Source: Lepidodermella squamata (taxonomy: Eukaryota > Animalia > Gastrotricha). From it: a stretch of DNA of 64,000 nucleotides. Made by a program: the position numbers and the translations under genes. The notes beneath the pieces are model-generated. The model was not told the DNA's origin. It did not search any database and saw only the letters and a list, made by a program, of their open reading frames with translations. Positions 37,698 to 64,000 of the stretch are shown in pieces. The stretch is taken from positions 1,612,001 to 1,676,000 of the forward strand of contig JBLDXI010000042.1 in NCBI GenBank assembly GCA_047495785.1, read 5' to 3'. Every line of letters begins with the position of its first letter. Positions within the stretch are counted from its first letter, which is position 1.

Positions 37698-40600
37698 ATG
37701 AGGTCGATTCTTGCTTTCGCTTTATTGATCAATTTCGCTGTAATTTCGCATGGAATAGTGAGTAGCAACTTCCAATTCAATTATTTTTAGTATAAACATT
37801 TGTAATTTTTTCCGTAGACTCCAGAGCATGAAAATGTTCTCCGGCAATTGAGTGACGCGATGCGTGCAAATCGGGGCCTTTCACCAGTAATTTCCATAGA
37901 AATATCGTCATCAGTTTGTGTTACAAATTATTGCTATAGGCCAATCGTAGCATCCCGCTAAAGCTATGCGGCATTCCAGATCTCGAAACCGCGCAAGCAA
38001 AACTGAGGCGACAACTGGCGATCGCAGATGGTGAGCCATTTGTGGCCGGATTGAGATTGGATTCGAATTTATGGACGTTCCCCATTCGATACAGATTCGA
38101 CGAGTCTACGCCATATGGTTGGTTGATATATTTATGAATTTTGTTTTAAATTCCGAGGCAGCAAAATTCATCATATCGTCATAATTTTCACGTTAATCCA
38201 GTCCTGAATAATATAATAATTTGAATAAAAATTATTTATTTGTTTATTTTAATTTTTTAATTATTTAAATTAATAATTTTTTTTTTAATATTTAAGAATA
38301 ATGTTTTCAATACAGAGGTCGGTCAAAAAGCAATCATCCGTGCAGGTATGGATCGTTGGGAAGACGTTACATGTGCCCGATTTGTTGAAAATCAAACTTT
38401 ACCTAAGACTTAAAATGGTCTGAAAATCTTTAAAGGAATAGGGTGAGTCAGTTTTGTTAAATGATAGGTATATTTTATATTATTCGAATTTTATTTTCTA
38501 AGATGCTGGTCATACATTGGTCGGCTGCGAGATGGAAAGCGACAAGACTTGTCTCTAGAGAACGGCTGCATGGGGGTATCTAGCATTTTTTGAAAAGCTC
38601 AAAGATTGAACGCGATCCTCATACAGGTATTCATTGCAGCTCACGAAATCGGCCACGCACTGGGAATGGTTGAGTTTTCGTCATACATATTGAAATCCTC
38701 AGTCTTCATGTGCGTCTCTATTAGGATCACGAACAATCGAGAACCGATCGCGACAACTACATCAGAATTATATACGAGAATGTTGTAGAGTAAGTTATTT
38801 TGATAGTAATAGAAAGCTCGAAACATAATTTGCTTTCAGAGGCGAGGAATACAATTTCGACACCGAACTGTCCGATGAAAATTTCAATGTCCCATATACG
38901 TACGATTCTGTCATGCAATACGGCTGGAACGCTTTCGGGAAAGGATGGAACTTTCGAACTATTGTGCCGTACGATAAACGATTCATGTACACCATGATGC
39001 AGCAGAATTACATCGCTTTTGGCGACGCGAAACGAATCAATATACGTTATCAATGCGGTAAGCCAAAATCTTGTTAGACGCTAGATGCGATGATATTTTG
39101 GGATTAGGGAAAACATATCGTAATCGTCGAAAGGCCACCTTTTACTTGTAGGATTTAATATGATCTTGTCTGCAAGTCAAGAATCTCAAAAATCAATCAT
39201 TTCAATTCGATTCAATTGTTCAAAATATCCCTGTTAAATCAATCAACTCAAATCAAATGTTCGCAAATTTGGGTACCAGGCTATAATTTCCGGCTTTCTG
39301 CCATTTTGAGGTTGAGTTTTGTCGGAATTTTTTTTCTGTTTTCAGTGGAAACGTCATGCGATGGCAAGCCGCTGCCACAGCCTTGTCAGAATGCAGGCTA
39401 TCAGAACCCGAACAACTGCTCCAAGTGCCTATGCCCGGAGGGTCTAGGTGGCGATTTCTGCGAGACCTATGCTCCGTACAAAGGTCCAGTTCCATGCGGA
39501 GGTTACGTCGATGTAAAAGCTTGCAGCTACACTTCGATCACCTCACCTGGTTACCCGAATGCCTTCGACGAGAATACGGCTTGCAATTGGTGGATTCGAG
39601 CGGTAAATTCTAACCATTTTTTTCAAATCAGAACTTGAAAGATTGGCGTTACAGCCGGCTGCTTCTGGACTAGTTTTCGCCTTCGGAAAAACTCCCGATC
39701 TTCCTAGCGAATATCTATGTAACACCCTGAAACTAGTTACCTGAAGTATTGATCTTTTCCGATTATATTCAGATTACACGAGTTGCGGAGATTATGTTTC
39801 AATTAAAGATTTCAGCAGTATTGAAAAATCAGCAATGAGGTTCAAAATATTATTGCCTGAAAATATTGATTGATTCATGTATTTTCTCAGGTTTTGCACT
39901 GACAGCATTTCAAATGGCCGAGTGTACTCAACTGATGACAATCAAGCAATAGTCACATTCGGAACACAGGGCATCCCTAGCCCTAGCACCGGGTTCAATT
40001 TGACTGTCTACGCCACGTGCCCGGGCACGAAAGCAACCTTGCTTAGCAAGGAGTGTCGAATTACCGATACTGGTCGCGACTACGAAGGCCTGAACGTTAC
40101 TACGTCGTCCAGGGGTAGAGCATGCTTGAAATGGTCCGACAGGGCAACTGTGTACGATTTGGGACTGCCAATGGGTGATGTTGCCGCGTCGGCAAATGCC
40201 TGCCGTGCCTACTTCACCAATGATGATGACCCTGTATGCTTCGTCAGCAAAAACGTTTATGGCACTTGTCCTCTAGTTGATAAGTGCCCAACGAGTAAGT
40301 AATTAAAAAGGGCCGATACATAATTAAGGCGGACTTTTTTTTATTTGAACATTAGCTTTTTGTCCTATTCCGTGTCAAAACGGGGGAACCTGTGTTGGCG
40401 TGGAAATTTGCAGCTGCCAAGCTGGTTGGACCGGTTCAACCTGCTCAACTCGTAAGTTTCCATAAAGTTCCAATTATTTAACTAACACTTTTCTTATTGC
40501 AACAGGAATCCCACCAAAATATGAAAGATGCTTTCTGAAGAGTACTGGCGATTTATCTATATGCCGATTGGCACCTCCGCTGTCACTTGGCTGTCATGAA

Positions 40601-48700: not shown

Positions 48701-51700
48701 ATGAAGCTGATACTTGCTGTTACACTACTACTCAGTTTCGTGGCCAATTCCCGTGGAATTGTGAGTGGCCACTATTTTATTAACCCATTCCCATCTAAAG
48801 CATGTATGTTTTCCAGGATCCGGAGCTTGAAGACGTTCTCTGGCAATTGAACGATGCCATTCTTGCAAATCATGGTCTTCCACCGGTACATTTTCGAGAA
48901 ATATCGCCATTAAATGTGTAATACCACTTTTTTTCTAGGCTGATCATAGCGTCCCACTGAAGCTATGCGGCGTTCCGGATCTGGAAACAGCGAAAGCAAA
49001 ACTGAGACGACAGCTGGCAATCGCAGAGGGCGAGCCATTGGTAGCCGGCGTGAAATCGACTGCCAATCTGTGGGAATTTCCTATCAAATACCTAATCAAT
49101 GATTCATTCAGTTAGTTGAACGGTTGTCATATTCTTATTTTTAGGGCCTTTTAGATTCAATATGGAACCAAAATTCCTGGTTTTGTAACAAAATTTGGAA
49201 AAACTAATCTAATAATTTATAGATTAACCCCCCTGATTCAGACACACCGAAATACATTTCAAATCCTTGGGCCTGAATCCTAATTAAAAATAATATTTTC
49301 TATGATCGATAATAGGGGCTTGAATTTGGATTTATTTTCATTACTCTTTGTATTGCTTTGTATTTTAATTCAAAATTCAATTAATGATTTTTTTTCAGTA
49401 GACTGGTTCAGTAGTTAAAAATAAAAAATAAATGAATAATTTATCAAAATGTAACCTTGAATTTTACCGAATCTGGTTTAGCCCCCTACAACTGCTACAA
49501 CTATCCTATTGCTTTCGAACTTAGTTGTAACCTGACTACTTGTATTATTTGATTGCAGCCGCCGATCAGAAAGCCAATATCCGCGCAGCTATGGATCGCT
49601 GGGAAGAGGCTACATGCGCCCGTTTTCTCGAAATTCCAGATCTCCCAGCGGATCTGAACGGCCTGAATATCTTCAAAGAAACAGGGTGAGTCATTTTCCG
49701 AATCTAATTATATTTGTTAGATACGCTATTTCGTGACTGTGCCGAAGATGCTGGTCGTCTGTTGGGAGGATTGAACTCGGGCAACGGCAAGATTTGTCTT
49801 TAGGTGAAGGCTGCACGGGGGTATTTAACATTTTGTTGAAAAGCTGTCCTTTAATTGAACCAAATGACTATTCACTCAGGTATTCATAGCAGCTCACGAA
49901 CTCGGCCACGCTCTAGGAATGGTTAGATATAGTTTCATTTTCGATTGCTTAGTATCTGATTGAGTGTCTCTAGGAACACGAGCAATCGAGAGAGGATCGC
50001 GATAGCTACATCCGAATCTTTTACGAGAACATTCAACCGTAAGTTCTGTGTTGAAAATTCTAAACATTAATGAGATGGTTTTCATATGCATTTAGTGGCA
50101 GCGCGTACGCCTTCAATACCGTAATCAACGATGAGAATTACAATCTATCGTACGTTTATGACTCCGTCATGCACTACGGATGGAACTCATTCGCGAAAGC
50201 TGAAGAATTGCGAACCTTGGAAACAATTGACAAGCGATTCATGTACACAGTAGGCCAGCAGAATTACATCGCTTTCGGAGATGCGAAACGAATTAATATA
50301 CGGTATAATTGTGGTAAGTAATGAAACTGCTTTGTGGACATTTTTCCAAATTTTAAGCTGGAATTAATTGAGAATCGTTCAAAAAATAGCATAAATTGTG
50401 CAATTTTAGACCTAACAATTCTTTCCTCATTTTCAAGTTTATTTCCAGTTTCACCTTTTTTATATCAATGAAGTTCATTGAAATATTCCTGATTACACTA
50501 TGAACCGCCGATTTCATTCCACTACGATGCTTGAATTCCCTCTTTTTAGTTGAAACTTCATGTAATGGCCAACCTCTGCCACAGCCTTGCCAGAATGGAG
50601 GCTATCAGAACCCAAATAACTGCTCTAAGTGCCTATGCCCGGAAGGTCTAGGTGGCGATTTCTGTGAGACCTACGGCCTATACAAAGGTCCAGTTCCATG
50701 CGGTGGTTACGTCGATGTGAAAGCTTGCAGCTACACTTCGATCACCTCACCTGGCTACCCGAACGCCTTCGACAAGAATACGGCTTGCAATTGGTGGATT
50801 CGAGCGGTAATTTCCAGACCTATTTGTTATTGACTTGTTTAAGCTCATCGTTTCAGCCTGCTGGAACTGGTTTGGTTTTCGCTTTCGAAAAGACACCAGA
50901 TCTTCTTGCCGATAATTATTGTAACAGCTTGAAACCATATATAAATCGTTTTTCTCAATGTTTTCTAGATCATACGAGCTGCGGAGATTACGTTTCAATT
51001 CGTGATTTCAGCAGTGTTGAAAAATCAGCAATGAGGTTGGTCAATTGTGGCCATGAGCTACTTTTCGATTCATCAATTTCTTCCAGGTTTTGCACTGATA
51101 GCGTGTCGAATGGTCGTGTGTTTTCAACTAGCGACAATCAAGCAATAGTCACATTCGGAACGCAGGGCTTCTCAACCACCAGCACTGGGTTCAATTTGAC
51201 CGTCTACGCCACGTGCCCGGGTACTACGGCCAGCTCGCTTACCAAGGAGTGTCGAATTACCCAAAGTGGTCGCGACTATGAAGGCCAGGCCATCAATGCG
51301 TCTTCCTCGGGTGAAGCTTGCTCTCCATGGTCTAGCAAGTCGAACGTAATAGATTTGAAACTTCCAATGGGTGATATTGCCGCATCAGCGAACACGTGCC
51401 GTGCGTGGAACAGCGAGGATAAGCCTGTATGCTACGTCGCCGACGGTTCTTATAAGACTTGCCCACTGGTCGAAAAATGCCCAGCAAGTAAGTTCATAGC
51501 AGTCTTTACAAGGGCCCAGAAAAGAAAGCATAAGGGCCCCCCTGTGGTTAGGCTTCGGGTCCCGAAGTAGGGACAGTCCCCCCGTCCCTCTTGTCTCTTG
51601 TCATCTTCGACACAGGTTCATTGCTCTTTGTATTGTAGATTGTACCAATGATTTCCTCATCTCTGTTAGAAATTAACAGCCGGTTTCGAAAGGTTTCGGA

Positions 51701-53261: not shown

Positions 53262-54115
53262 AATTAGTTGGCGAATTTCGAAAGCGAATACAATCAAATA
53301 AAACTGTTCCTGATATATTTTGGCTGATAATTACTAACTTAAATGTTTTCTTAAGCTGCCAGTTTTTTGGTTTCCTTACGAATCTCTTCATTTCGCAGAA
53401 ATGCTGTTATATTTTCTTCTTCATGTATCAAATAATAAATCAAATATAAGAGATTTAGATCGGTTAGGACTTGTAGTATATCCGAATGCACTTGAGCTAA
53501 AAATCTTCTTGGTATGCAAGTGGCGGTGCAGAATTCTGCAGAATTCAGGAATTCTTAGTAACACTGAGAACGATATCGTTAAGTAGGCTACGGTTAAGAT
53601 TAAGTTTTTTAAATGGTTCAATTAGGCCACGGGTGATGGTGCCTCGGGCGCGAATGAAAGCCGATGGATTTGAGTTTGTAGACCTCGAGTAGAGGTACAC
53701 AACGCATGGATTGCCCTCTTCTCATCGTTCGTCTCCTGAAACTGGGTGGCCGACTTTAAAAAATTAAAGTTCGAAGTTCTAATGATTTCAGAAAGCTGAA
53801 ATTCTGCTGTCTGAGGAGTCGAGCTAAACACAAAGAAAAGCGATCATTTTCTATCTTTCCCGGCAGCATTTATCATTTTTGCTATTTATGTCTTCGGTTA
53901 GAACAATACAGTGGACATTACATGTAAATAATGAGGCTAAGATAACGATAAAAACAGCCGTAGGCTGATATATTTCTCCGGAAAACAACAAAGTAAATAG
54001 TAAATATCATTCATTTGGGGGCTGAATTCCAAGTGCAGTTCCTGTTGTCTTCATAAAACAACTCGTAGCGGGGGACACCCACGCGTAACTCATAATCTAA
54101 GGCGAAGCTTAAATA

Positions 54116-54197
54116 CTGCTTTCTGAGGAGTCGAACCATCGCGAGATGAGATCATTCAACTTCTGTTGACGCATCACAACCACTCGACCATTCACAC
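54116..54197 (-). pseudogene. tRNA-Ser-like pseudogene or tRNA-derived repeat head
   Basis: A-box TGGTCGAGTGG at positions 8-18, B-box GGTTCGACTCC, long variable region, AGA in a shortened anticodon loop; acceptor stem unpaired. Confidence 0.55.
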
Positions 54198-54593
54198 CTC
54201 ACAAGTAGTATTAGTTAGTTCGAGTAAAAAATGCGTAAATTAGTTGGGAATGAAAAGTGAATGAAAAATCGGTACTTTTTGCAAATTTAGGTTGAAAAAT
54301 CGGTACATTTTGAAAATTGTGGATGGAAAATCGATAATTAAGGTGGATTGGAATGAGAATCAATTTTTTGCAGGAGCTATCACTAATAAAATTATTTCAG
54401 ATCTGGAACTAGCCGCGGTCAAGTCGAATTGATTATCTCTCAGCAGCAAGTCAAAATAATTGAGGAAACAACTTTGCGAACACGAAACTTTATTGAATAA
54501 TTGCAGGTGAATAAAATGAGAACCGATAATTTTTTTTTCAGAATAATTGAGCAAAAAACACAGTAGATGAGAAAAGTGTACAGAAGAAAGACA

Positions 54594-56070
54594 CTACGGC
54601 TCGTATGTTATTAGAGAATCAAAATTTAGACTGGTGTCTTCCAGAAGCGGTCGGTAATCTTCGATGGACGACGTATTTACAAGAACAATGTCATCGAGGG
54701 TGATGACGTCTTCAGGAGAAGGTCGACGCGGAAACAACAATAACAAATTCGGGGAGCTAGGTGTATAGGTAGGCGAAGTAGGTTCATAGGTAGGTGAAAT
54801 AGGTAGATAGGTAGGTGAAATAGGTGAAGGTTCATGGTGAAGGGAGACAGTGTCAAATTGAGGAGAAGGAGGTAAGTATCGTAGAGAAACGGGTGAGTAA
54901 TAAGCAGTCGAAAAGTAGGACGAGTCGCAGCTAGTCGGGGAGCCGCCTGCCGACTCGCCAGCCGAGTAGCCGCTGCCCGCGTAGGTGCTCAGCGTGTCAC
55001 CGCCGGTCGAGATGCTGGCCGTGTAGGTGCTCAGCGTGTCACCCTCGTCCGAGTCACCGTCGTCCGTGGCGCCGCCGGTCGCGTTGTCGGTCGCGCCGTC
55101 GTTCGAGGCGCCGCCGGTCGCGTTGTCGGTCGCGCCGTCGTTCGAGGAGCCGCCGGTCGCGTTGTCGGTCGCGCCGTCGTTCGAGGAGCCGCCGGTCGCG
55201 TTGTCGGTCGCGCCGTCGTTCGAGGAGCCGCCGGTCGCGTCGTCGGTCGCGCCGTCGTCGCCGGCCGCGTCGATGAGCCAGTCGTGAGGCGGCGGCAGGG
55301 GGACAACGCCGGGAGAGTCACCGCGGGGCAGCGCCACAAAGAAATCGTCGACCGGCGTGGCGATGGTATCGTGGTCGGCAAAGACTTGCTCGATATCGAC
55401 GACCGGCAGAACAACAACTCCGTTTATGAAATCGTCGAGAGGGAGCTGGATTTCGCCGAACGGCGCGGCGTCGATATCCGGATAGTAAAACAGGTCTTCT
55501 TCCCCGTAAACCAGTGCGAATAAAGGGGCCCAATCTTCGTAATCGAAGAGGGAGCTGTCGCTCCTGGGCCTGTCGGCAGGGTCGATGATCGTCACCGGAT
55601 CGTCATCGAGGAGAACCGAGGCCATCGCGGCGGCTATCTCGGGCACGTCATCGTCAGCGTACAACTCGCCGTCGCCGCCGCCGCAGGGCAGATCGCCAGT
55701 AGGAGAGACAGAGCGCGGCGAGCCAGGCAAGGCGGCATCGTGCTTGGTGGGCGAGTTTTCAACCGAAGCAGCGTCGCTGTTGGCGGAAGAGTCCTCGCCG
55801 CGGAAATCGAGGTAGTCGTAGGTACGCTTCTCGGAATTTGCGACATGATCTGTAGAAAAATTAAAAAAAATTAAGATAATGAGACGAAATAAATAATCGC
55901 AACTAACCAAACATTAGCCGCTGAAAGCAATCGAGAGGATGGATGCATAAAATGCGGCAGGGCGTCGCTTTCTTAGCCGCAATCGAACGGCGCGAGTTCT
56001 TTAACCACGCCGGCGCGTCGTTCGGGACGACAGGAATGCGGTTCGTAACCAATGTCGGAATGACACGCAT
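54594..56070 (-). CDS. Acidic low-complexity protein with 13-aa repeats and Pol II CTD-like heptads (2 exons: 56070-55908, 55849-54594)
   Basis: 438-aa ORF joined in frame to an upstream ATG exon by a 58-bp GT-AG intron; GC-rich coding sequence. Confidence 0.7.
55066..55260. repeat. 39-bp coding tandem repeat (about 5 units, GGSSNDGATDNAT)
   Basis: Unit GCGTTGTCGGTCGCGCCGTCGTTCGAGGAGCCGCCGGTC. Confidence 0.92.
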
Positions 56071-56237: not shown

Positions 56238-56588
56238 TCACAGCCGGGCGCGTTGCAGCTCAGCGAAGACATCCTCAGCATCGATCGGCGCAAAGCCATT
56301 GAGCAGCGAAGCGACGAATTCGTCCAACGATTCGAAGGGATCATACTCTTCACCCAATACCAGAAACTGTAAGTCGGCGTAGCCAAAGAAATCGTCATCG
56401 TCGTTCGTGGTGCCGCCGTCGATCATCGTGCCGCCGTCGATCATCGTGCCGCCGTCGTCGCCGGCCGCATCGATGAGCCAGTCGTGAAGCCGCGGCTGCG
56501 GGACAACGGGAACATACTCTTCATCGAATACCTGACGCCATAAGTCGGCGTAGTCATCGTAATTCAGATCGTCAGCCAGGTCGGACAT
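56238..56588 (-). CDS. Small acidic protein paralogous to the neighbouring acidic protein
   Basis: Shares HDWLIDAAGDDG and D/E-W/F-rich modules with 54594-56070. Confidence 0.65.
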   Translation of the reverse strand: MSDLADDLNYDDYADLWRQVFDEEYVPVVPQPRLHDWLIDAAGDDGGTMIDGGTMIDGGTTNDDDDFFGYADLQFLVLGEEYDPFESLDEFVASLLNGFAPIDAEDVFAELQRARL

Positions 56589-56913: not shown

Positions 56914-57283
56914 AGGGTATTTATACCCTCCGCAGGCAATCAATCAACAGGTAGAATTGTAAATGTCAAATTTTCCCTGTCAAAAATCTGTCAAAAATTC
57001 GAACATAATTCAAGAAATCTTGAAGGAAACGTCAAAAATTTGAAGTTTCAATGGTTACAAGGCAATTAAAAAGTCAGATTAGGCTTAAATTTCTTGAGCA
57101 ATTTGTCGAAAATCTGTCAAAATGTCGAATTTCAAGTTATAAAACTGCCAAGACGTCAAATTTCACGAAGTTAAACTGCCAAGATGTCAAATTTGTCGAA
57201 AATAAAATGCCAAAATGCCAAGAATTTTACAAATTTAGATTTATTGCTGAAATATGATTGATTGGGTCTAAGGGTATATAAGC
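56914..57283. promoter_or_regulatory. Putative divergent promoter region with two TATA boxes and a TGTCAA-type repeat array
   Basis: AGGGTATAAA on the minus strand (within 56914-56929) and AGGGTATATAAG on the plus strand (57271-57282), between divergently oriented genes. Confidence 0.45.
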
Positions 57284-57375
57284 AGGGCGCGGCGCACACT
57301 TTCAGCACTCGTACAGAATTCCTTACAGATTTCACGCCACTATTCCACCTTAAAGTTCCCATATACTTTCTACCC

Positions 57376-58655
57376 ATGAATCAGTTTGGCAATTTTGGGT
57401 TGGGAAACATCCCGCCTAATAACTTGCAATTCCCGGCTAATAACACGCAGTTCCTGGCTAATAACATGCTATCATCTCAACAAGTGGACACGGCTCGACA
57501 GGTAAAAAATTTGCGAATGAGACAACTCCGAAGTTGAATAATGCATTTAAATGAGATGCATTATTCAACTTAAAATGCAGAAGAATACTGCTAAAGCGAA
57601 CATTTTATTATGAACGCTCGTTACCGTTCATCGACCGCTACATGTGTAAAATACTTTAATCTCATGCTGCGTCGATCAACGGTACGGGCGATCGTATAAT
57701 AAAATACCGCCACTCGTTATATCTCGCACCTAGCGCGCGCGCGTGTAATAAAGCTAATCCGGTATTAACGCTGTTCGATACCGTTGTGGTCCTGATCAGC
57801 GCTCATAACGGGTTCAACAAAGCAGAAAGGCGCAAATAAAATCATCAACGAAGCGCGCCGGCACATAATAACGCAGCTCGTTACAGTGTAACAGTGTACA
57901 AACGGGCGAATCGCTGATGATGACAAGTGCGAAATTATATAACGGCGCACAAAAATAGCCGCAATAAATTTGACATAAAAAGTGCGCGCGCGCGCGAATA
58001 AAAATAAGCGCAGCGCTGCCGAGCATCATCAGCATCATCGAATAACGCGCGCGCAATACCTCGCACGTTTGCGAAAATATAAAAAAAAATTCAAACTATG
58101 CCGTAATATAAGGAGTGATGTAAATTTCAGGAAACTATTGAATGGGCGCCGTTCGACTCGTCGTTGTCTACTAATGCTCGAGCTATGGATAAATTGGCCA
58201 GCTTCAAGTTTACGAATAATTACAAGGCTATTCGCTATGTGTGCACTGACAACAAATACGTGTTTTTTCTGGGGAAAATAAATTCGCCGGATCCGCACAG
58301 CCCGATGGTGCAGCCGGGTAAAGGTCTGTGGATGACAGAACTCGAGGTACGACAATTGCTGGCCGGCATCAAGGGCAATGCAAACTGGCTTCGAACTCTA
58401 AACTCAAGTCTTCAAGCTGCCGGAGCCAATCGAGAAAATCTCGGGGTTCAATCAGTCGAATCGTCCAATAATCACATCATCAACAACCTTCGCTGGTCTT
58501 TTTACGCACCAAAGAATATCTTGTTCATTGATTTGCGCAGGTATACGCCGCAGCCAGATAATAAGTATAGGGCGATGAAAGATGGCATCTCAATTCCGCA
58601 GTCAATTTTTTCGCAATTAGAGTCGATTTTATGCCAAGTTCTTGAAGGCATCTGA
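57376..58655 (+). CDS. PC4/Sub1-like ssDNA-binding protein, probably two PC4 domains (exons 57376-57501, 58131-58655)
   Basis: LFIDLRRY..YRAMKDGISIPQSIFSQL fits the PC4 signature; weaker N-terminal copy PGKGLWMTELEVRQL; in-frame GT-AG splice. Confidence 0.7.
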
Positions 58656-59069: not shown

Positions 59070-62000
59070 ATGGATGAAGAGTTCAAACTACTGCGCTATG
59101 AAAAAGTTAGCGAACGCTTTGGCTTATCGACATATGAATTTTTAATCCAAGCCGGCGGTGGTGAATCTTCCGCCGAAACGGATTCTCTCCAGCAATATGA
59201 AAAAATTCAAAACTATTTTGAAAAAATAGTTGATCGGCTTCGATCAAAGTTTGACCCGGATAGCATGTGCCGGATATCTATTCACAACTCGGAGCTTTCG
59301 TATCCGATATCACTGGGCTATTATAGGCTAGCAATTTTATCAGGGGCTATCATAACCAATCATGTGGAACGAATCGCTCAGTCTAAGCGAGGATTAATTT
59401 TTTCATCCACTCCTTTCCGAGTAGAAGCAAACATGGTGTTTCTCGATAAAATGAGGGATGATGAATCCAAGTATTTAGGATCTGGCCCTGTTAGGCATCG
59501 AAAGAAACTCGAGACAAGCGCCTTGAAATGGCTATCAAATCTTAGTTCTTACATCCCTGTTGACAACGCAGATAATCTGTGTTTATTTTACGCTGTGGTT
59601 TTGGGCATGAGCCACAGCAATTACATAGCATATGTAGCCGATAAAAACAAGAATTTACTTCGATATTTGGAATCTCCAGAATTGGAGCAAAAAGGACTAG
59701 AATATATGCATCTGAAAAATGACAAGGCTAGACTGCGAAAGATGGCTCGGGATCTGTGCCGAAAATCCGGCTACGACCCCGAATCTAATCGATCATACGG
59801 TGTAGCTGACCTTCCTAAAATAATGCAATTTTTTCCGGATCATCAAGTAATAGTTTATTCTCTATCAGACAATCGGGTCGTATACATGTGGCCTGATAGC
59901 AGTGCTTTTTCTGACAAAGATCCGATTCGAGTATACTTGATATGGATCCATCCCAAGTTGATGGCTCCAATGTACAGCAGGGTTGGGCATTACGGCGCTC
60001 TCAAGAATTTGAGTCAAGTAAGCCATGCGAAAACGTACTGTAAACTGTGCTTTGTACCTATATCAAGATCAAATCATAATTGCCTATATCGATGTTACGC
60101 ATGCCATCAGCGATTAAAACCAGCTTTAAGTTCGAATAATGGGATAGTGGATACTCCGAGATGCCTTAATAGGTGTTCCGATGAGTCAACAATTAGTTGT
60201 CAGAACTGCAATCGATTTTTTTTCGGAATTAATTGTCACAATTACCACATCAAAGCTAAGATATGTGACAAATTTGTTCGATGCAAATCTTGCGGGCAAA
60301 TTAAAACTCGAATTAGGATGGCTGAGCACAAATGCTCTGGTCGCAAGTGTGTGGTTTGCAAATCAAAGCTGGAACCTGGCCATCAATGCTATTGGACAAG
60401 GCCAAAGCTTAAGGAATCAGCTGCTCCGAATCGCGTATTATACTTTGACATCGAATGTATGCTCTTGGATAGTGGGGAATTTCATGCAAGCACCGTTATC
60501 GGCGAATTCGCATGCGATGCGTGTTCAGAGCGTGAAATACGCGAATATCCCGCGGACGGAGGTTCAATCTGCGAAAATGAGTGCTCTCAGCTATTTTTCT
60601 ATCACGAATCTGATGCATTCGCGAAATTCATGCGATATATATGCTGCGATCGGTATAAGGATCTGACGTGCATTTCTCATTACGGCGGTAAGTGATTAGG
60701 CTCAAAAAACGTGAAAAATCTAGGCTGTAATTTGTTTAGGCAAATTTGATACGATTTTTGTTCTGCGCTACGTTCAAGAACAGAATATTAAATTTGAGAC
60801 TATAGAGAGGGCGGGAAGAATATTGGAGCTAAAAATAGATCGTGGACCCCGGTAAGAGTGCAAATTTGTAAAAAAAAAAATAGATTTCAAAAATTGGGAA
60901 AAAATAGATTTATTGATAGCTACAACTATTTTTTGACAAAATTGTCCTCTCTTCCGGCCGCTTTCGGCATTGACGGCTTGGAAAAACTTAGCTATGCTCA
61001 TAAACTGCATACCCGCGAAAATTTGTTCAAAGTTTTTCCCGAATGGCCTGGGCTTGAAAAGTACGATATCAGCGGCATGTCTGAGAAAGAAATCGCCAGC
61101 TTGGAAGATTTCATCAGGCTGAAGAGGCAAAATCGCGAAAGTTACGATTTTAAATCGGAAACTTACCGGTATTGCCGACAAGATACCGTCATTCTACGAA
61201 TAGCAACTGGCCGATTCAAGAAAATGATACAGGAATTATCAAAGTGTGATTACGCACCGAATGGTATCAATTGCTTCAACTACCTAACACTGTCGTCCAT
61301 CTCCCATATTATTTATCGAGTAGGTTAAGAAAAAAATGGAGTAATCTACCTTAAAAACATTTCTGGTCACCCTAGATTAAGTACATGCTGCCAAATTCAA
61401 TTCGAATATTCAATCCTCAAGGATTGGTGCTCAGAGACGTCGCAAGTCAAGAAGCTCTGCAATGGCTATATTATTACTCTAAAATTCATAATGTGGAGAT
61501 TGAATCAGCTTTGAATGGCAGTGAAATTAGGCTGAAAATGTCTGATAAATCTGAGCTCAAAGCTGACGGGGTAATTCGCAACAAGTCAACAGGGATGGTT
61601 GAGCGGGTACTCGAATACTACGGTGAGCTCTGAACATCATTTTCTCAGATAGATTTACGCTTTCGGTTCTAGGCTGCACCGTTCACGGGCATCCTCGTTG
61701 CGTCCCTGAAAATAGGTACAACTTTTTGCTGCGAAAAACGTATGGGGAGCTTGCTTATCAAACGGCTAAACGCGAAGAAAAGCTTCGCCAGCATAATTAT
61801 CAAATCACCTCGATTTACTCTTGCGAGTTTAAGCAAATTCTCGCGAATGACCCAGAACTTGCTTCGACATTGCGAGCTGCGGTTTCAATAGTACCGCCGA
61901 TTAAACCACGGTCAGCGCTATTGGTAAGACTGCTGAAATTGCGATAAATATATCAATAGAAAATAATTTTAGGGTGGACGAACGGAGGTATTCAGGTGTT

Positions 62001-63554
62001 ATTTTGCTAGAGATTCAGCGACGAGTCTTCAATATGTGGATATAAATTCCATGTATCCATACGTTCTGTGTAGCAAACAGTTTCCGTGCAATAACATCTC
62101 GGCACAAGTATTAAGGTGGCGATTGAACGACGAAAAACTGAGAGCAAAGTTTTTCGACGAAAATGACCCAGCATTTGGCCTAGTTTCTGCGAAGTGTTGT
62201 CCGAATCCCAGCCTAATCGTGCCATGTTTGCCTTATAAGTCCCCCGATGACGATCGCCTGGTTTTTATCAGTTGCAGAACATGCTATCTGGAGAAAAACG
62301 TGACGACTAGATGCAATCATGACATGGATCAGCGCGCAATTTCCGGAGTTTGGACCAGTGAGGAGCTTCGCATGGCTGTTGTACAATTCGGTTATAACTT
62401 GGTCGAGGTATACGAAATATGGCACTTTCCAGACCGTAGCAACTTGCAATTCAGAGAATTCATTCTCTCGCTTCAAAAATTGAAGCTTGAAAACACTGTT
62501 CTTGCTCCAACAGTTGACGTCGAGCAATACGTCACCGAATGTCGGGAAAGGTACGGAATCGAGCTCGACCGGCAAACCATGCTGTCGCCGAATGCTTCGA
62601 TGAAACAGATTTCCAAGATCCTTCAAAATAGGTAGGTCGATTAAACAATCTTGAAATTAACCCTAATTTATCTCTCAGCTTCTACGGTCGCTTTTGCCTA
62701 CGAGCAAATAATTCCGTGGTGAAATATTTGGACTCGCCAGAACAGTTGATCGAGCTTTTTGAAGCTCCAAGCAAGGTTATTCACACAATTCAGCCAGTAG
62801 GACCAGATGACGAGCACCAAAAAGTCCGCGTTTCATATTCAGACGCTCCAGAATATGAACAGCCATGCGCTACCAACTCTGAAATTACAGCATCCTTTAT
62901 AACTTCTTACGCAAGAATGAAACTTTACGAGGAGGTTCGCAATAATTGGACTAAACGAATTTCAAGCTAATTAACTTTGATTTCAGATGGCCAAGCTGGG
63001 TTCCAGACTTGTATACTGCGACAGTAAGCAAATTCGCTACCTAAATTTCGTAGAATTTTGATAATCTTGTATTACGCAGCCGATTCGTTGATTTACACGC
63101 ACCAAGAGGGTGAATACAAAATTCCAGAGAGTCCATTTCTGGGAGACTTCAAGTCTGAATTGAGCGAGGGAGAATTCATTGAGTCTTGGGTAGCGATTTC
63201 GCCAAAATCCTATTCATTTGTCTCCAACTTGAGGTATAGAATTAATTTTTAGACTTGTTTTTTTTTTAATTAATTTCTTTTAGAACTGAACTCAAGTTTA
63301 AAGGAATAACCCAAAACTTGGCGGGGAAACGGTTGACTCACGAATCTCTAATTAAGCTGCTAACCGACTACCTTAACAATTTTGCTGCTGAAAGTGCGAT
63401 AACTGTCGATCAGACCGTATTTCGTAGGCGTCACGTTCCAGCATCCGTAACTCTTGAAAATATTGAGAAAACAGTATCCCCTCACCTTAATGACAAACGA
63501 ATATTTGATCCTTTGTCATTCACCTCTATCCCTTACGGATATCTTCCTCATTAA
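59070..63554 (+). CDS. Protein-primed family B DNA polymerase (Maverick/Polinton type), 10 exons
   Basis: ExoI YFDIEC; ExoII HYGG|KFD; ExoIII YCRQD; VSR-like insert ADG..EYYG|CTVHGH; GGRTE; motif A DINSMYP; motif B KILQNS|FYGRF; motif C YCDT|DS; KFKGI; C-terminal PYGY. Confidence 0.92.
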
Positions 63555-63598
63555 AATAATAATACGATTTGATCGCTTTCTCTCGTAGATTTTAGAAA

Positions 63599-64000
63599 AT
63601 GACAAAAAGTATCGCATCGGAGCGTTTAGCGCCTGAGAGCAAGGCCTTGTACGAATTTATCGAAGACGAGGTTACCTGCAGCATCTGCTTGGGAATAATG
63701 ACTTCTCCCGTCTACCTAACAAGTTGTCATCACGTCTATTGCGAATCCTGCCTATGCCGATGGGGCGAGAGATGCCGCGGTTCTGATGCTCGATCTCTTA
63801 TATTCAAAAGAGCGACTTGTCCCAAATGTCGAGAGTTTTACTCGCTGTTGGACATCAATCCTGGACCTGGTGTCGTCGAGCGGCTAGTTTCGCGCATGCT
63901 TTTCAGTTGCATTTATGAAAAGTATGGTTGCTCAGTGAAGCGTGACCATTGGGGCATCAGGGCTCATCAAAGGATCTGCAAGGAGAAAGGAGCTGCTAGT
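63599..64000 (+). CDS. RING-HC plus TRAF/SIAH-type zinc finger protein (putative E3 ligase), runs off the window
   Basis: CSICLGIMTSPVYLTSCHHVYCESCL..CPKCR, then CIYEKYGC..HQRIC; missing from the ORF track because the window ends before a stop. Confidence 0.82.
   Translation, partial: MTKSIASERLAPESKALYEFIEDEVTCSICLGIMTSPVYLTSCHHVYCESCLCRWGERCRGSDARSLIFKRATCPKCREFYSLLDINPGPGVVERLVSRMLFSCIYEKYGCSVKRDHWGIRAHQRICKEKGAAS

What the first reader, a model, noticed from the sequence alone, without database searches (positions are those of the whole stretch)
54747..54900. RNA polymerase II CTD-like heptads in a Maverick accessory protein
The C-terminus reads YSPVSLR-YLPPSPQ-FDTVSLH-HEP-SPISPT-YLPISPT-YEPTSPT-YTPSSPN. 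The last three heptads are in exact Y1-x-P3-x-S5-P6 register, like YSPTSPS. They are followed by a SUMO-interacting-like stretch, EDVITLDDIVLV. Inference: molecular mimicry that could recruit or decoy CTD kinases, capping enzyme or Pin1; Glu at position 2 of one heptad could mimic phospho-Ser2.
Basis: partly seen in the sequence, partly recalled or inferred. Interest (0 to 1): 0.78.

Follow-up and report, generated by a model that had tools for sequence, protein, structure and literature searches.

The report
Maverick protein with polymerase-tail-like heptads
A virus-like DNA element in an animal genome encodes an acidic protein with four degenerate copies of the seven-residue repeat of the RNA polymerase II tail, so the protein likely engages the host enzymes that phosphorylate and read that tail, which is untested.

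Summary
A minus-strand reading frame near the left end of a Maverick-type element (pPolB, PC4-like and RING genes downstream) carries three tandem Y-x-P-x-S-P-x heptads (54747-54809) plus a fourth (54858-54878). None is a perfect YSPTSPS, and Pfam PF05001 is not hit. A neutral 21-bp repeat is unlikely. Tyr1, Pro3, Ser5 and Pro6 changed only synonymously while positions 2, 4 and 7 drifted (neutral simulation P=0.017 for three units, 1.5e-4 for four). These are the four positions essential in fission yeast. The same word is far commoner in viral contigs than two scrambled orders (119 found in a partial scan, against 3 and 1), and 22 of 42 hand-picked carriers are RNA polymerase subunits or capping enzymes. 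Against this: no homologue was found, so conservation across elements is untested. A diverged copy stops aligning at the array. The SUMO-interacting-like motif is at chance level (39.5% of shuffles) and the Glu2 idea has no support. Best reading (0.5): a Ser5-Pro6 phospho-docking mini-tail on a likely regulatory protein; binding is untested. The scan noted the same idea before, in an oyster Polinton and in giant viruses (unchecked notes).

The parts
54747..54809 (-). Three tandem heptads in exact Y1-x-P3-x-S5-P6-x register (YLPISPT, YEPTSPT, YTPSSPN); 21-bp DNA period
   Evidence: TRF period 21, 3.2 copies, 87% matches
54810..54899 (-). More diverged upstream units: YSPVSLR, YLPPSPQ (fourth Y-x-P-x-S-P, 54858-54878), FDTVSLH, HE spacer, PSPISPT
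54678..54713 (-). EDVITLDDIVLV, fits a SIM-like pattern but at chance level
   Evidence: 39.5% of 20000 shuffles of the tail give one
54594..55849 (-). Main coding exon (417 codons to the stop) of an acidic, low-complexity protein: 75 D/E against 12 K/R; GC 0.65 upstream of the heptads, 0.44 in heptads plus tail
   Evidence: coding constraint on the tail from a second copy
55850..55907 (-). Predicted 58-nt GT..AG intron after a 7-nt first coding exon (ATG at 55914-55912); a TTTCAG acceptor-like site lies at 55926-55921. Inferred, no RNA seen
   Evidence: sequence
55057..55258 (-). 39-bp tandem repeat (13-residue D/G/A/T/N/S unit), 5.2 copies, 97% matches: a young expansion in the same frame
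54489..54494 (-). AATAAA 100 nt after the stop codon
54204..54209 (+). AGTAGT, likely left end of the element (Polinton end motif recalled); contigs of run X1 break here and depth rises from 22 to 161-178
56238..56588 (-). Second acidic ORF (116 aa) sharing a 59-nt segment (92%) and 17 of 21 residues with the heptad protein; no heptads
58185..58655 (+). PC4-like ORF
   Evidence: PF02229 E 1.2e-4, 22 bits, below the 25-bit cutoff
59070..63554 (+). Protein-primed family B DNA polymerase gene in several frames (introns inferred)
   Evidence: PF03175; one homologue P0029, E 1.6e-17, 35% identity
63596..64000 (+). RING finger frame, runs off the window
   Evidence: PF00097 E 1.3e-7

Best explanation
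A Maverick-type element encodes an acidic, low-complexity protein whose C-terminal part holds four degenerate polymerase II heptads keeping Tyr1, Pro3, Ser5 and Pro6, which likely act as a small phospho-docking tail for the host's CTD enzymes. Shown: the motif, its register, its codon pattern and its place near the element's left end. Inferred steps: (1) the gene is spliced and made as a disordered protein of about 420 residues; (2) a host proline-directed CTD kinase (CDK7/TFIIH type) phosphorylates Ser5; (3) Ser5-phosphate/Pro6 readers (capping enzyme, Pin1-type WW, Ssu72-type phosphatase) bind; (4) no RNA polymerase gene was seen in the part of the element inside the window, so it would depend on host Pol II, and the tail would bring these factors to its genes or time the protein's activity. 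I favour local recruitment over a global decoy, because four units are few. The acidic and aromatic N-terminal half resembles an activation region (recalled resemblance only).
For:: across the three tandem units, 0 changes at first and second codon positions of Y1/P3/S5/P6, 3 synonymous third-position changes, and 7 first/second-position changes at positions 2/4/7. With the fourth unit: 0, 5 and 10. Neutral star-tree simulation, any 4 of 7 positions invariant: 0.017 (50071 kept runs) for three units, 1.5e-4 (26240) for four. (PMC8051263, passages): Tyr1, Pro3, Ser5 and Pro6 are essential in fission yeast, Ser2, Thr4 and Ser7 are not, and the Ser5/Pro6 need is tied to capping-enzyme recruitment; the triple word in viral contigs 119 found in 43 of 64 parts (about 180 estimated), against 3 and 1 for two scrambled orders; of 42 hand-picked carriers, 17 RPB2, 3 RPB1, 2 capping enzymes; prokaryote background 44 stretches in 596 Gb, 21 of 44 with identical DNA units, only 1 of 44 diversified like this one; a second copy differs in the tail at codon positions 1/2/3 = 8/0/9 (P=0.001 for none at position 2), so this frame was under coding constraint.
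Against: No homologue outside the repeat and no related element with flanks, so register conservation is untested. The diverged copy aligns only over 54613-54762 and then runs on unlike at the array for its last 70 letters; it also has 4 gapped letters, so the frame is broken there. No perfect heptad; PF05001 not hit. Mammalian CTD function needs five consensus heptads in a row (PMC6548728, passages); here there are three degenerate ones. The fourth unit was picked because it fits the motif, so the four-unit P is optimistic, and the three-unit P is modest. No basic cluster that could be a nuclear signal and no DNA-binding domain were found. The element makes other repeats, including another 21-bp repeat at 57410-57472 with a non-CTD unit. 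The word also occurs in prokaryotes, which lack a CTD. Only 7 of 15 changed tail codons are synonymous (P=0.057), and 17 of 25 differences were listed.
Confidence: 0.5

Rival explanations
1. A selected but generic proline-directed phosphorylation array (multisite CDK/MAPK substrate, WW ligand or Fbw7/SEL-10-type phosphodegron) that times the protein's turnover; the CTD likeness is convergent and CTD readers are not the partners.
For: 15 S/T-P sites over the whole protein, 9 of them in residues 318-377. ISPTYE and TSPTYT fit a pS-P-x-x-(E/pT) degron pattern (recalled consensus). Ser2 is missing in the exact units.
Against: It does not explain the invariant Tyr1 and Pro3 at 7-residue spacing, nor the enrichment of this exact order over scrambles and its concentration on viral RNA polymerase subunits and capping enzymes among the carriers scanned.
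Confidence: 0.22
2. A neutral 21-bp tandem expansion in a tolerant disordered protein that happens to read Y-x-P-x-S-P.
For: TRF calls a 21-bp repeat. The element has other coding repeats of 39, 18 and 21 bp. At the prokaryote background rate (4.7e-6 per 64 kb) a scan of some 250,000 windows would meet about one such triple. The diverged copy does not align across the array.
Against: Units differ at up to 8 of 21 bases, yet never non-synonymously at the four key codons. Neutral-looking triples in prokaryotes are mostly near-identical units (21 of 44 identical; 1 of 44 diversified like this).
Confidence: 0.13
3. A relic of a captured piece of host DNA (the host RPB1 tail or another host gene) fused onto the element's gene and now decaying.
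For: GC3 falls from 0.72-0.97 upstream to 0.29 in the heptads and 0.43 in the tail, which suggests a separate origin. Nematode Mavericks carry a high-GC, intron-bearing cargo region by the left repeat (bioRxiv 2022.07.12.499685, passages).
Against: Decay would not spare only Y1/P3/S5/P6. A/T-ending Tyr, Pro and Ser codons could also lower GC3 by repeat amplification. Capture and later selection are compatible with the best explanation.
Confidence: 0.1

Closest known systems
[quoted passage not shown]
   Same: 7-residue period, Tyr1/Pro3/Ser5/Pro6, low-complexity setting near a C-terminus; heptad-bearing proteins make up 24 of the 26 phmmer hits.
   Different: Not on a polymerase; 3+1 units instead of 26-52 (PMC6548728); no perfect unit; Ser2 and Ser7 absent from the exact units; PF05001 not hit.
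Y-x-P-x-S-P-x tails on giant-virus proteins (RPB2, RPB1, capping enzyme, KH, NADAR, SAP and an unnamed family of about 390 residues)
   Same: Same degenerate word with free positions 2, 4 and 7.
   Different: Those viruses encode their own RNA polymerase; no polymerase gene was seen in the part of this element inside the window. No homology outside the repeat, and 0 of 119 loci matched the pPolB probe in the DNA held (flanks fetched for only 80).
Cellular CTD mimics: Trf4 NIM (yeast) and PIE-1 (C. elegans)
   Same: A short CTD-like motif in a non-polymerase protein that engages CTD readers or kinases. NIM binds the Nrd1 CID (PMC4186968, passages). PIE-1 binds cyclin T (PMC10395837, passages).
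   Different: NIM is a single acidic phosphomimic, and PIE-1's heptad is non-phosphorylatable (recalled; one search found 0 papers with it). Here Ser5-Pro6 is kept and repeated, which suits a substrate rather than a pseudo-substrate. One search also says that PIE-1 mutants unable to bind cyclin T still repress.
Cargo genes of nematode Mavericks (wasp proteases, krma kinases)
   Same: High-GC, likely intron-bearing gene next to the left end (passages).
   Different: No protease, kinase or ubiquitin-like domain (0 Pfam families); the neighbours here are PC4-like and pPolB genes, not the integrase.

Membership tests
RPB1 CTD (PF05001) | Tandem 7-residue repeats with Tyr1, Pro3, Ser5, Pro6 | tested here: met
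   Three in tandem plus one
RPB1 CTD (PF05001) | Consensus YSPTSPS units / Pfam PF05001 match | tested here: not met
   0 perfect units; 0 families at E<=1 for the exon and for the 51-residue tract
RPB1 CTD (PF05001) | Attached to the largest Pol II subunit | tested here: not met
   No RNA polymerase domain in the protein
RPB1 CTD (PF05001) | Minimal functional unit: yeast two Tyr 7 apart plus three S-P motifs; mammals five consensus heptads | tested here: inconclusive
   Tyr spacing met and one S-P per unit, but Ser2-Pro3 is absent from the exact units; five heptads not met (criteria from PMC6548728 passages)
Functional CTD mimic | Phosphorylated by CTD kinases or bound by CTD readers | not testable with these tools
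   Needs kinase and binding assays
Functional CTD mimic | Key positions under selection | tested here: met
   Within-array codon test P=0.017 (3 units) and 1.5e-4 (4 units); a modest result for three units
Functional CTD mimic | Register kept in homologues | tested here: inconclusive
   No homologue found; the diverged copy stops aligning at the array and its contig ends 70 letters later
SUMO-interacting motif | Hydrophobic core with acidic flanks beyond chance | tested here: inconclusive
   Pattern met, but in 39.5% of shuffled tails; 1 of 16 other heptad proteins checked has one after its array
Maverick/Polinton | Protein-primed family B DNA polymerase | tested here: met
   PF03175; homologue P0029
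Maverick/Polinton | Integrase, ATPase, protease, capsid proteins | not testable with these tools
   The element runs off the window at 64000; no genome held
Maverick/Polinton | Terminal inverted repeats and target-site duplication | tested here: inconclusive
   AGTAGT at 54204 with a contig break and depth step; right end not available

The most novel reading that the evidence does not exclude
Mavericks/Polintons carry their own detachable mini-CTD: a Ser5-Pro6 heptad tail on an acidic activator that brings the host's CDK7 and capping machinery to the element's genes. It would be one instance of a Y-x-P-x-S-P code reinvented across eukaryotic DNA viruses.
Probability: 0.3. Interest if true: 0.75.

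Novelty: new variant of a known kind. Interest (0 to 1): 0.5.

Why it matters
How Mavericks switch on their genes in the animal germ line is not addressed in the passages I read. A phosphorylatable CTD-like tail would be a concrete, testable way for an element that depends on host Pol II to use the host's CTD code, and a 21-28 residue peptide is enough to test it. The same reduced word sits on giant-virus RPB2 and capping enzymes, which would point to a minimal CTD code favoured by eukaryotic DNA viruses. If the tract proves to be a degron or neutral, the finding is an ordinary low-complexity tail.

Tried and rejected
Whole genome: not held. Homologue searches: whole exon, 0 of 7988 candidates at E<=0.1; residues 60-195, 0 of 982 at E<=1; both only for proteins of 229-730 residues. 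Atlas, residues 300-417: no usable hit; the second Atlas query did not complete. phmmer with the last 118 residues: 26 hits; 24 of 26 carry the word and the best stretches centre on the repeat, none reaching past query residue 95. Related elements with flanks: 0 of 11 and 0 of 27 pattern hits confirmed in viral contigs; 2 of 96 in metagenomes, 1.2 and 2.3 kb long, too short to reach an accessory gene. Expression: no RNA holder listed. AlphaFold2 without alignment: mean pLDDT 35.9, uninformative. Glu2 phosphomimic and SIM: not supported. LxCxE, PxDLS, PIP, PPxY and basic clusters: none. One search translated the wrong frame by one base; the open frame is. No complex prediction was run: unphosphorylated peptides and no host reader sequence. 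Literature: 'giant virus'+'RNA polymerase'+'heptad'+'CTD' 0 papers; 'Polinton'+'PC4'+'accessory' 0; one search found 228 papers with 3 of 5 terms, and none of the 20 listed mentions Polinton or Maverick; searches listed nothing on viral CTD-like repeats by title or abstract start; PMC12415211 has 0 occurrences of CTD or heptad; PMC2689277 and PMC8304009 were irrelevant (passages). The library lacks most subscription journals, and no supplements were read.

Full report
Observation. The frame is open further upstream. A GT..AG intron of 58 nt (55850-55907), an ATG at 55914, a TTTCAG acceptor-like site just before it and an AATAAA 100 nt after the stop suggest a spliced gene of about 420 codons (inferred, no RNA holder listed). 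Three heptads are in exact tandem Y-x-P-x-S-P-x register and a fourth lies upstream, out of register; none equals YSPTSPS. Residue shuffles gave three in tandem in 0 of 100000 runs for each of three segments, and the word occurs only once elsewhere in six frames of the window. Pfam finds nothing in the exon or in the tract at E<=1, PF05001 included.

Setting. Downstream on the plus strand lie a PC4-like ORF (E 1.2e-4, below cutoff), a family B protein-primed polymerase in several frames (PF03175; homologue P0029 at 35%) and a RING frame. AGTAGT at 54204 coincides with a contig break in run X1: the flank contig has depth 22 and the element's contigs 161-178. That suggests several copies, though the tool warns that depth is no copy number and X1 may be the source sample. 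The main contig over 54252-55100 has 3 other letters, none in the array. Integrase, capsid genes and the right end were not seen, so 'Maverick' rests on the polymerase and the end motif (motif recalled). The host is an animal, probably a nematode (inferred from short introns and the acceptor; an earlier unchecked note says the same). The gene sits where nematode Mavericks carry high-GC, intron-bearing cargo (bioRxiv 2022.07.12.499685, passages). The protein has 75 D/E against 12 K/R, a young 39-bp repeat (97% matches) and no basic cluster. A single-sequence model was uninformative (pLDDT 35.9).

Is it a neutral 21-bp repeat? It is a 21-bp repeat, but an old one: units differ at 4-8 of 21 bases. 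At Tyr1, Pro3, Ser5 and Pro6 there are no first- or second-position changes and 3 synonymous ones (5 with the fourth unit); positions 2, 4 and 7 take 7 (10) first- or second-position changes. In a neutral star-tree simulation matched for total change, any four positions stay invariant in 1.7% of runs for three units and 0.015% for four. The fourth unit was chosen because it fits, so the first figure is the safe one. As background, the triple word occurs in 44 stretches of 596 Gb of prokaryote DNA; 21 of 44 have identical units and 1 of 44 is diversified like this one, against 13 of 119 viral loci. At that rate a scan of 250,000 windows would meet about one triple by background, so chance at scan level is not excluded. 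The element also holds another 21-bp repeat with a non-CTD unit.

Is the frame real? A second X1 contig (depth 50.6) aligns over 54613-54762 with 25 other letters and 4 gaps. Of the 17 differences listed, 8, 0 and 9 fall on codon positions 1, 2 and 3, and 7 of 15 codons are synonymous (P=0.001 and 0.057). The tail was therefore under coding constraint in this frame. That copy has gaps at 54698, 54730 and 54735, so its frame is broken there. It stops aligning inside the last heptad and runs on unlike for its last 70 letters. This counts against conservation of the array at DNA level; what that copy encodes there is left open.

Does the kept set mean anything? In fission yeast Tyr1, Pro3, Ser5 and Pro6 are essential, Ser2, Thr4 and Ser7 are not, and the Ser5/Pro6 requirement is bypassed by fusing the capping enzyme to Pol II (PMC8051263, passages). 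In viral contigs the triple word was found in 119 stretches from 43 of 64 parts (about 180 estimated), against 3 and 1 for two scrambled orders of the same letters. Of the 80 contigs listed, 39 bear giant-virus MAG names. Of 42 carriers that I picked by hand from the first 80 loci (22 short, 20 long), 17 are RPB2, 3 RPB1, 2 capping enzymes, 1 each KH, SAP and NADAR, 1 PF05001 only, and 16 have no family. The reduced word is thus tied to transcription proteins in eukaryotic DNA viruses; this is analogy, not homology. Against full CTD function: mammalian cells need five consensus heptads in a row, and yeast needs two tyrosines plus three S-P motifs (PMC6548728, passages).

Glu2 is in one of four units, and position 2 is free (5% Glu among 534 viral units); no support. 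The SIM-like stretch fits the pattern, but so do 39.5% of shuffled tails, and two of its hydrophobic codons differ in the second copy.

Homologues. None: (26 hits, centred on the repeat); no related element with useful flanks.

Mechanism. Best reading (0.5): Ser5 is phosphorylated by a host CTD kinase, and the phospho-tail docks Ser5-phosphate readers such as the capping enzyme, Pin1 or Ssu72, serving the element's own Pol II transcription or timing the protein. All of these steps are inferred. Recruitment is favoured over a global decoy because four units are few. Rivals: a generic proline-directed phospho-array or degron (0.22), a neutral repeat (0.13), a decaying captured host piece (0.10; GC3 drops from 0.72-0.97 to 0.29 at the array).

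What is known. It works, if at all, like a CTD mimic; it is not a member of the RPB1 CTD family (no polymerase, no consensus unit, no PF05001). Cellular mimics are known: Trf4 NIM (PMC4186968, passages) and PIE-1 (cyclin T binding, PMC10395837, passages; PMC3146070, passages; its heptad is recalled, one search found 0 papers). I found no paper on CTD-like repeats in Mavericks or Polintons (PMC10748475 has 0 occurrences of CTD); most subscription journals are not in the library. Earlier unchecked notes of this scan describe the same idea in an oyster Polinton and in giant-virus KH and NADAR proteins. I could not test the first; I saw KH and NADAR carriers myself and did not check their relatives.

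Verdict. Real, probably selected, function untested, no homologues: new variant of a known kind, interest 0.5.

Noticed in passing
L003, L004, L006, L008, L009, L011, L014, L015, L017, L022, L023, L031, L056, L065, L071, L077, L080: Giant-virus-type RPB2 proteins (not RPB1) carry Y-x-P-x-S-P-x tails after the polymerase domains: 17 of 42 carriers scanned. L077 has WW domains beside its heptads, and L006 is fused to a cap methyltransferase. Not found in print.
   Followed up: partly
L001:5931-7106, L002, L007, L012, L024, L025, L032, L040, L045, L050: An unannotated viral family of about 370-510 residues (36-93% identity to the first) with YxPNSP heptads near the C-terminus. No Pfam family; solved-structure hits only through the repeat, apart from two weak POU matches at E 0.028.
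   Followed up: partly
window 57410-57472: A second 21-bp repeat (3 copies) in an open frame 57262-57537 that reads N/Q-rich heptads, not CTD-like; possibly the first exon of the PC4-like gene (inferred).
   Followed up: no
window 56238-56588: Acidic ORF sharing a 59-nt segment with the heptad gene and holding its own 18-bp repeat; suggests segmental shuffling in the left arm.
   Followed up: partly
window 59070-63554: The pPolB gene appears split by short introns, whereas core genes of the C. plicata Maverick are described as intronless (passage).
   Followed up: no
P0017: Unnamed 234-residue RING protein with 11 heptads and a C-terminal SIM-like motif; the Maverick here has a separate RING frame at 63596.
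   Followed up: no
window 54022-54201: Very high-depth repeat in run X1 (bin depth 2844) directly beside the element's left end.
   Followed up: no
window 39877-40302 and 50698-51570: Two similar host frames with kringle-like domains (PF00051, below cutoff), probably exons of a tandem gene pair.
   Followed up: no
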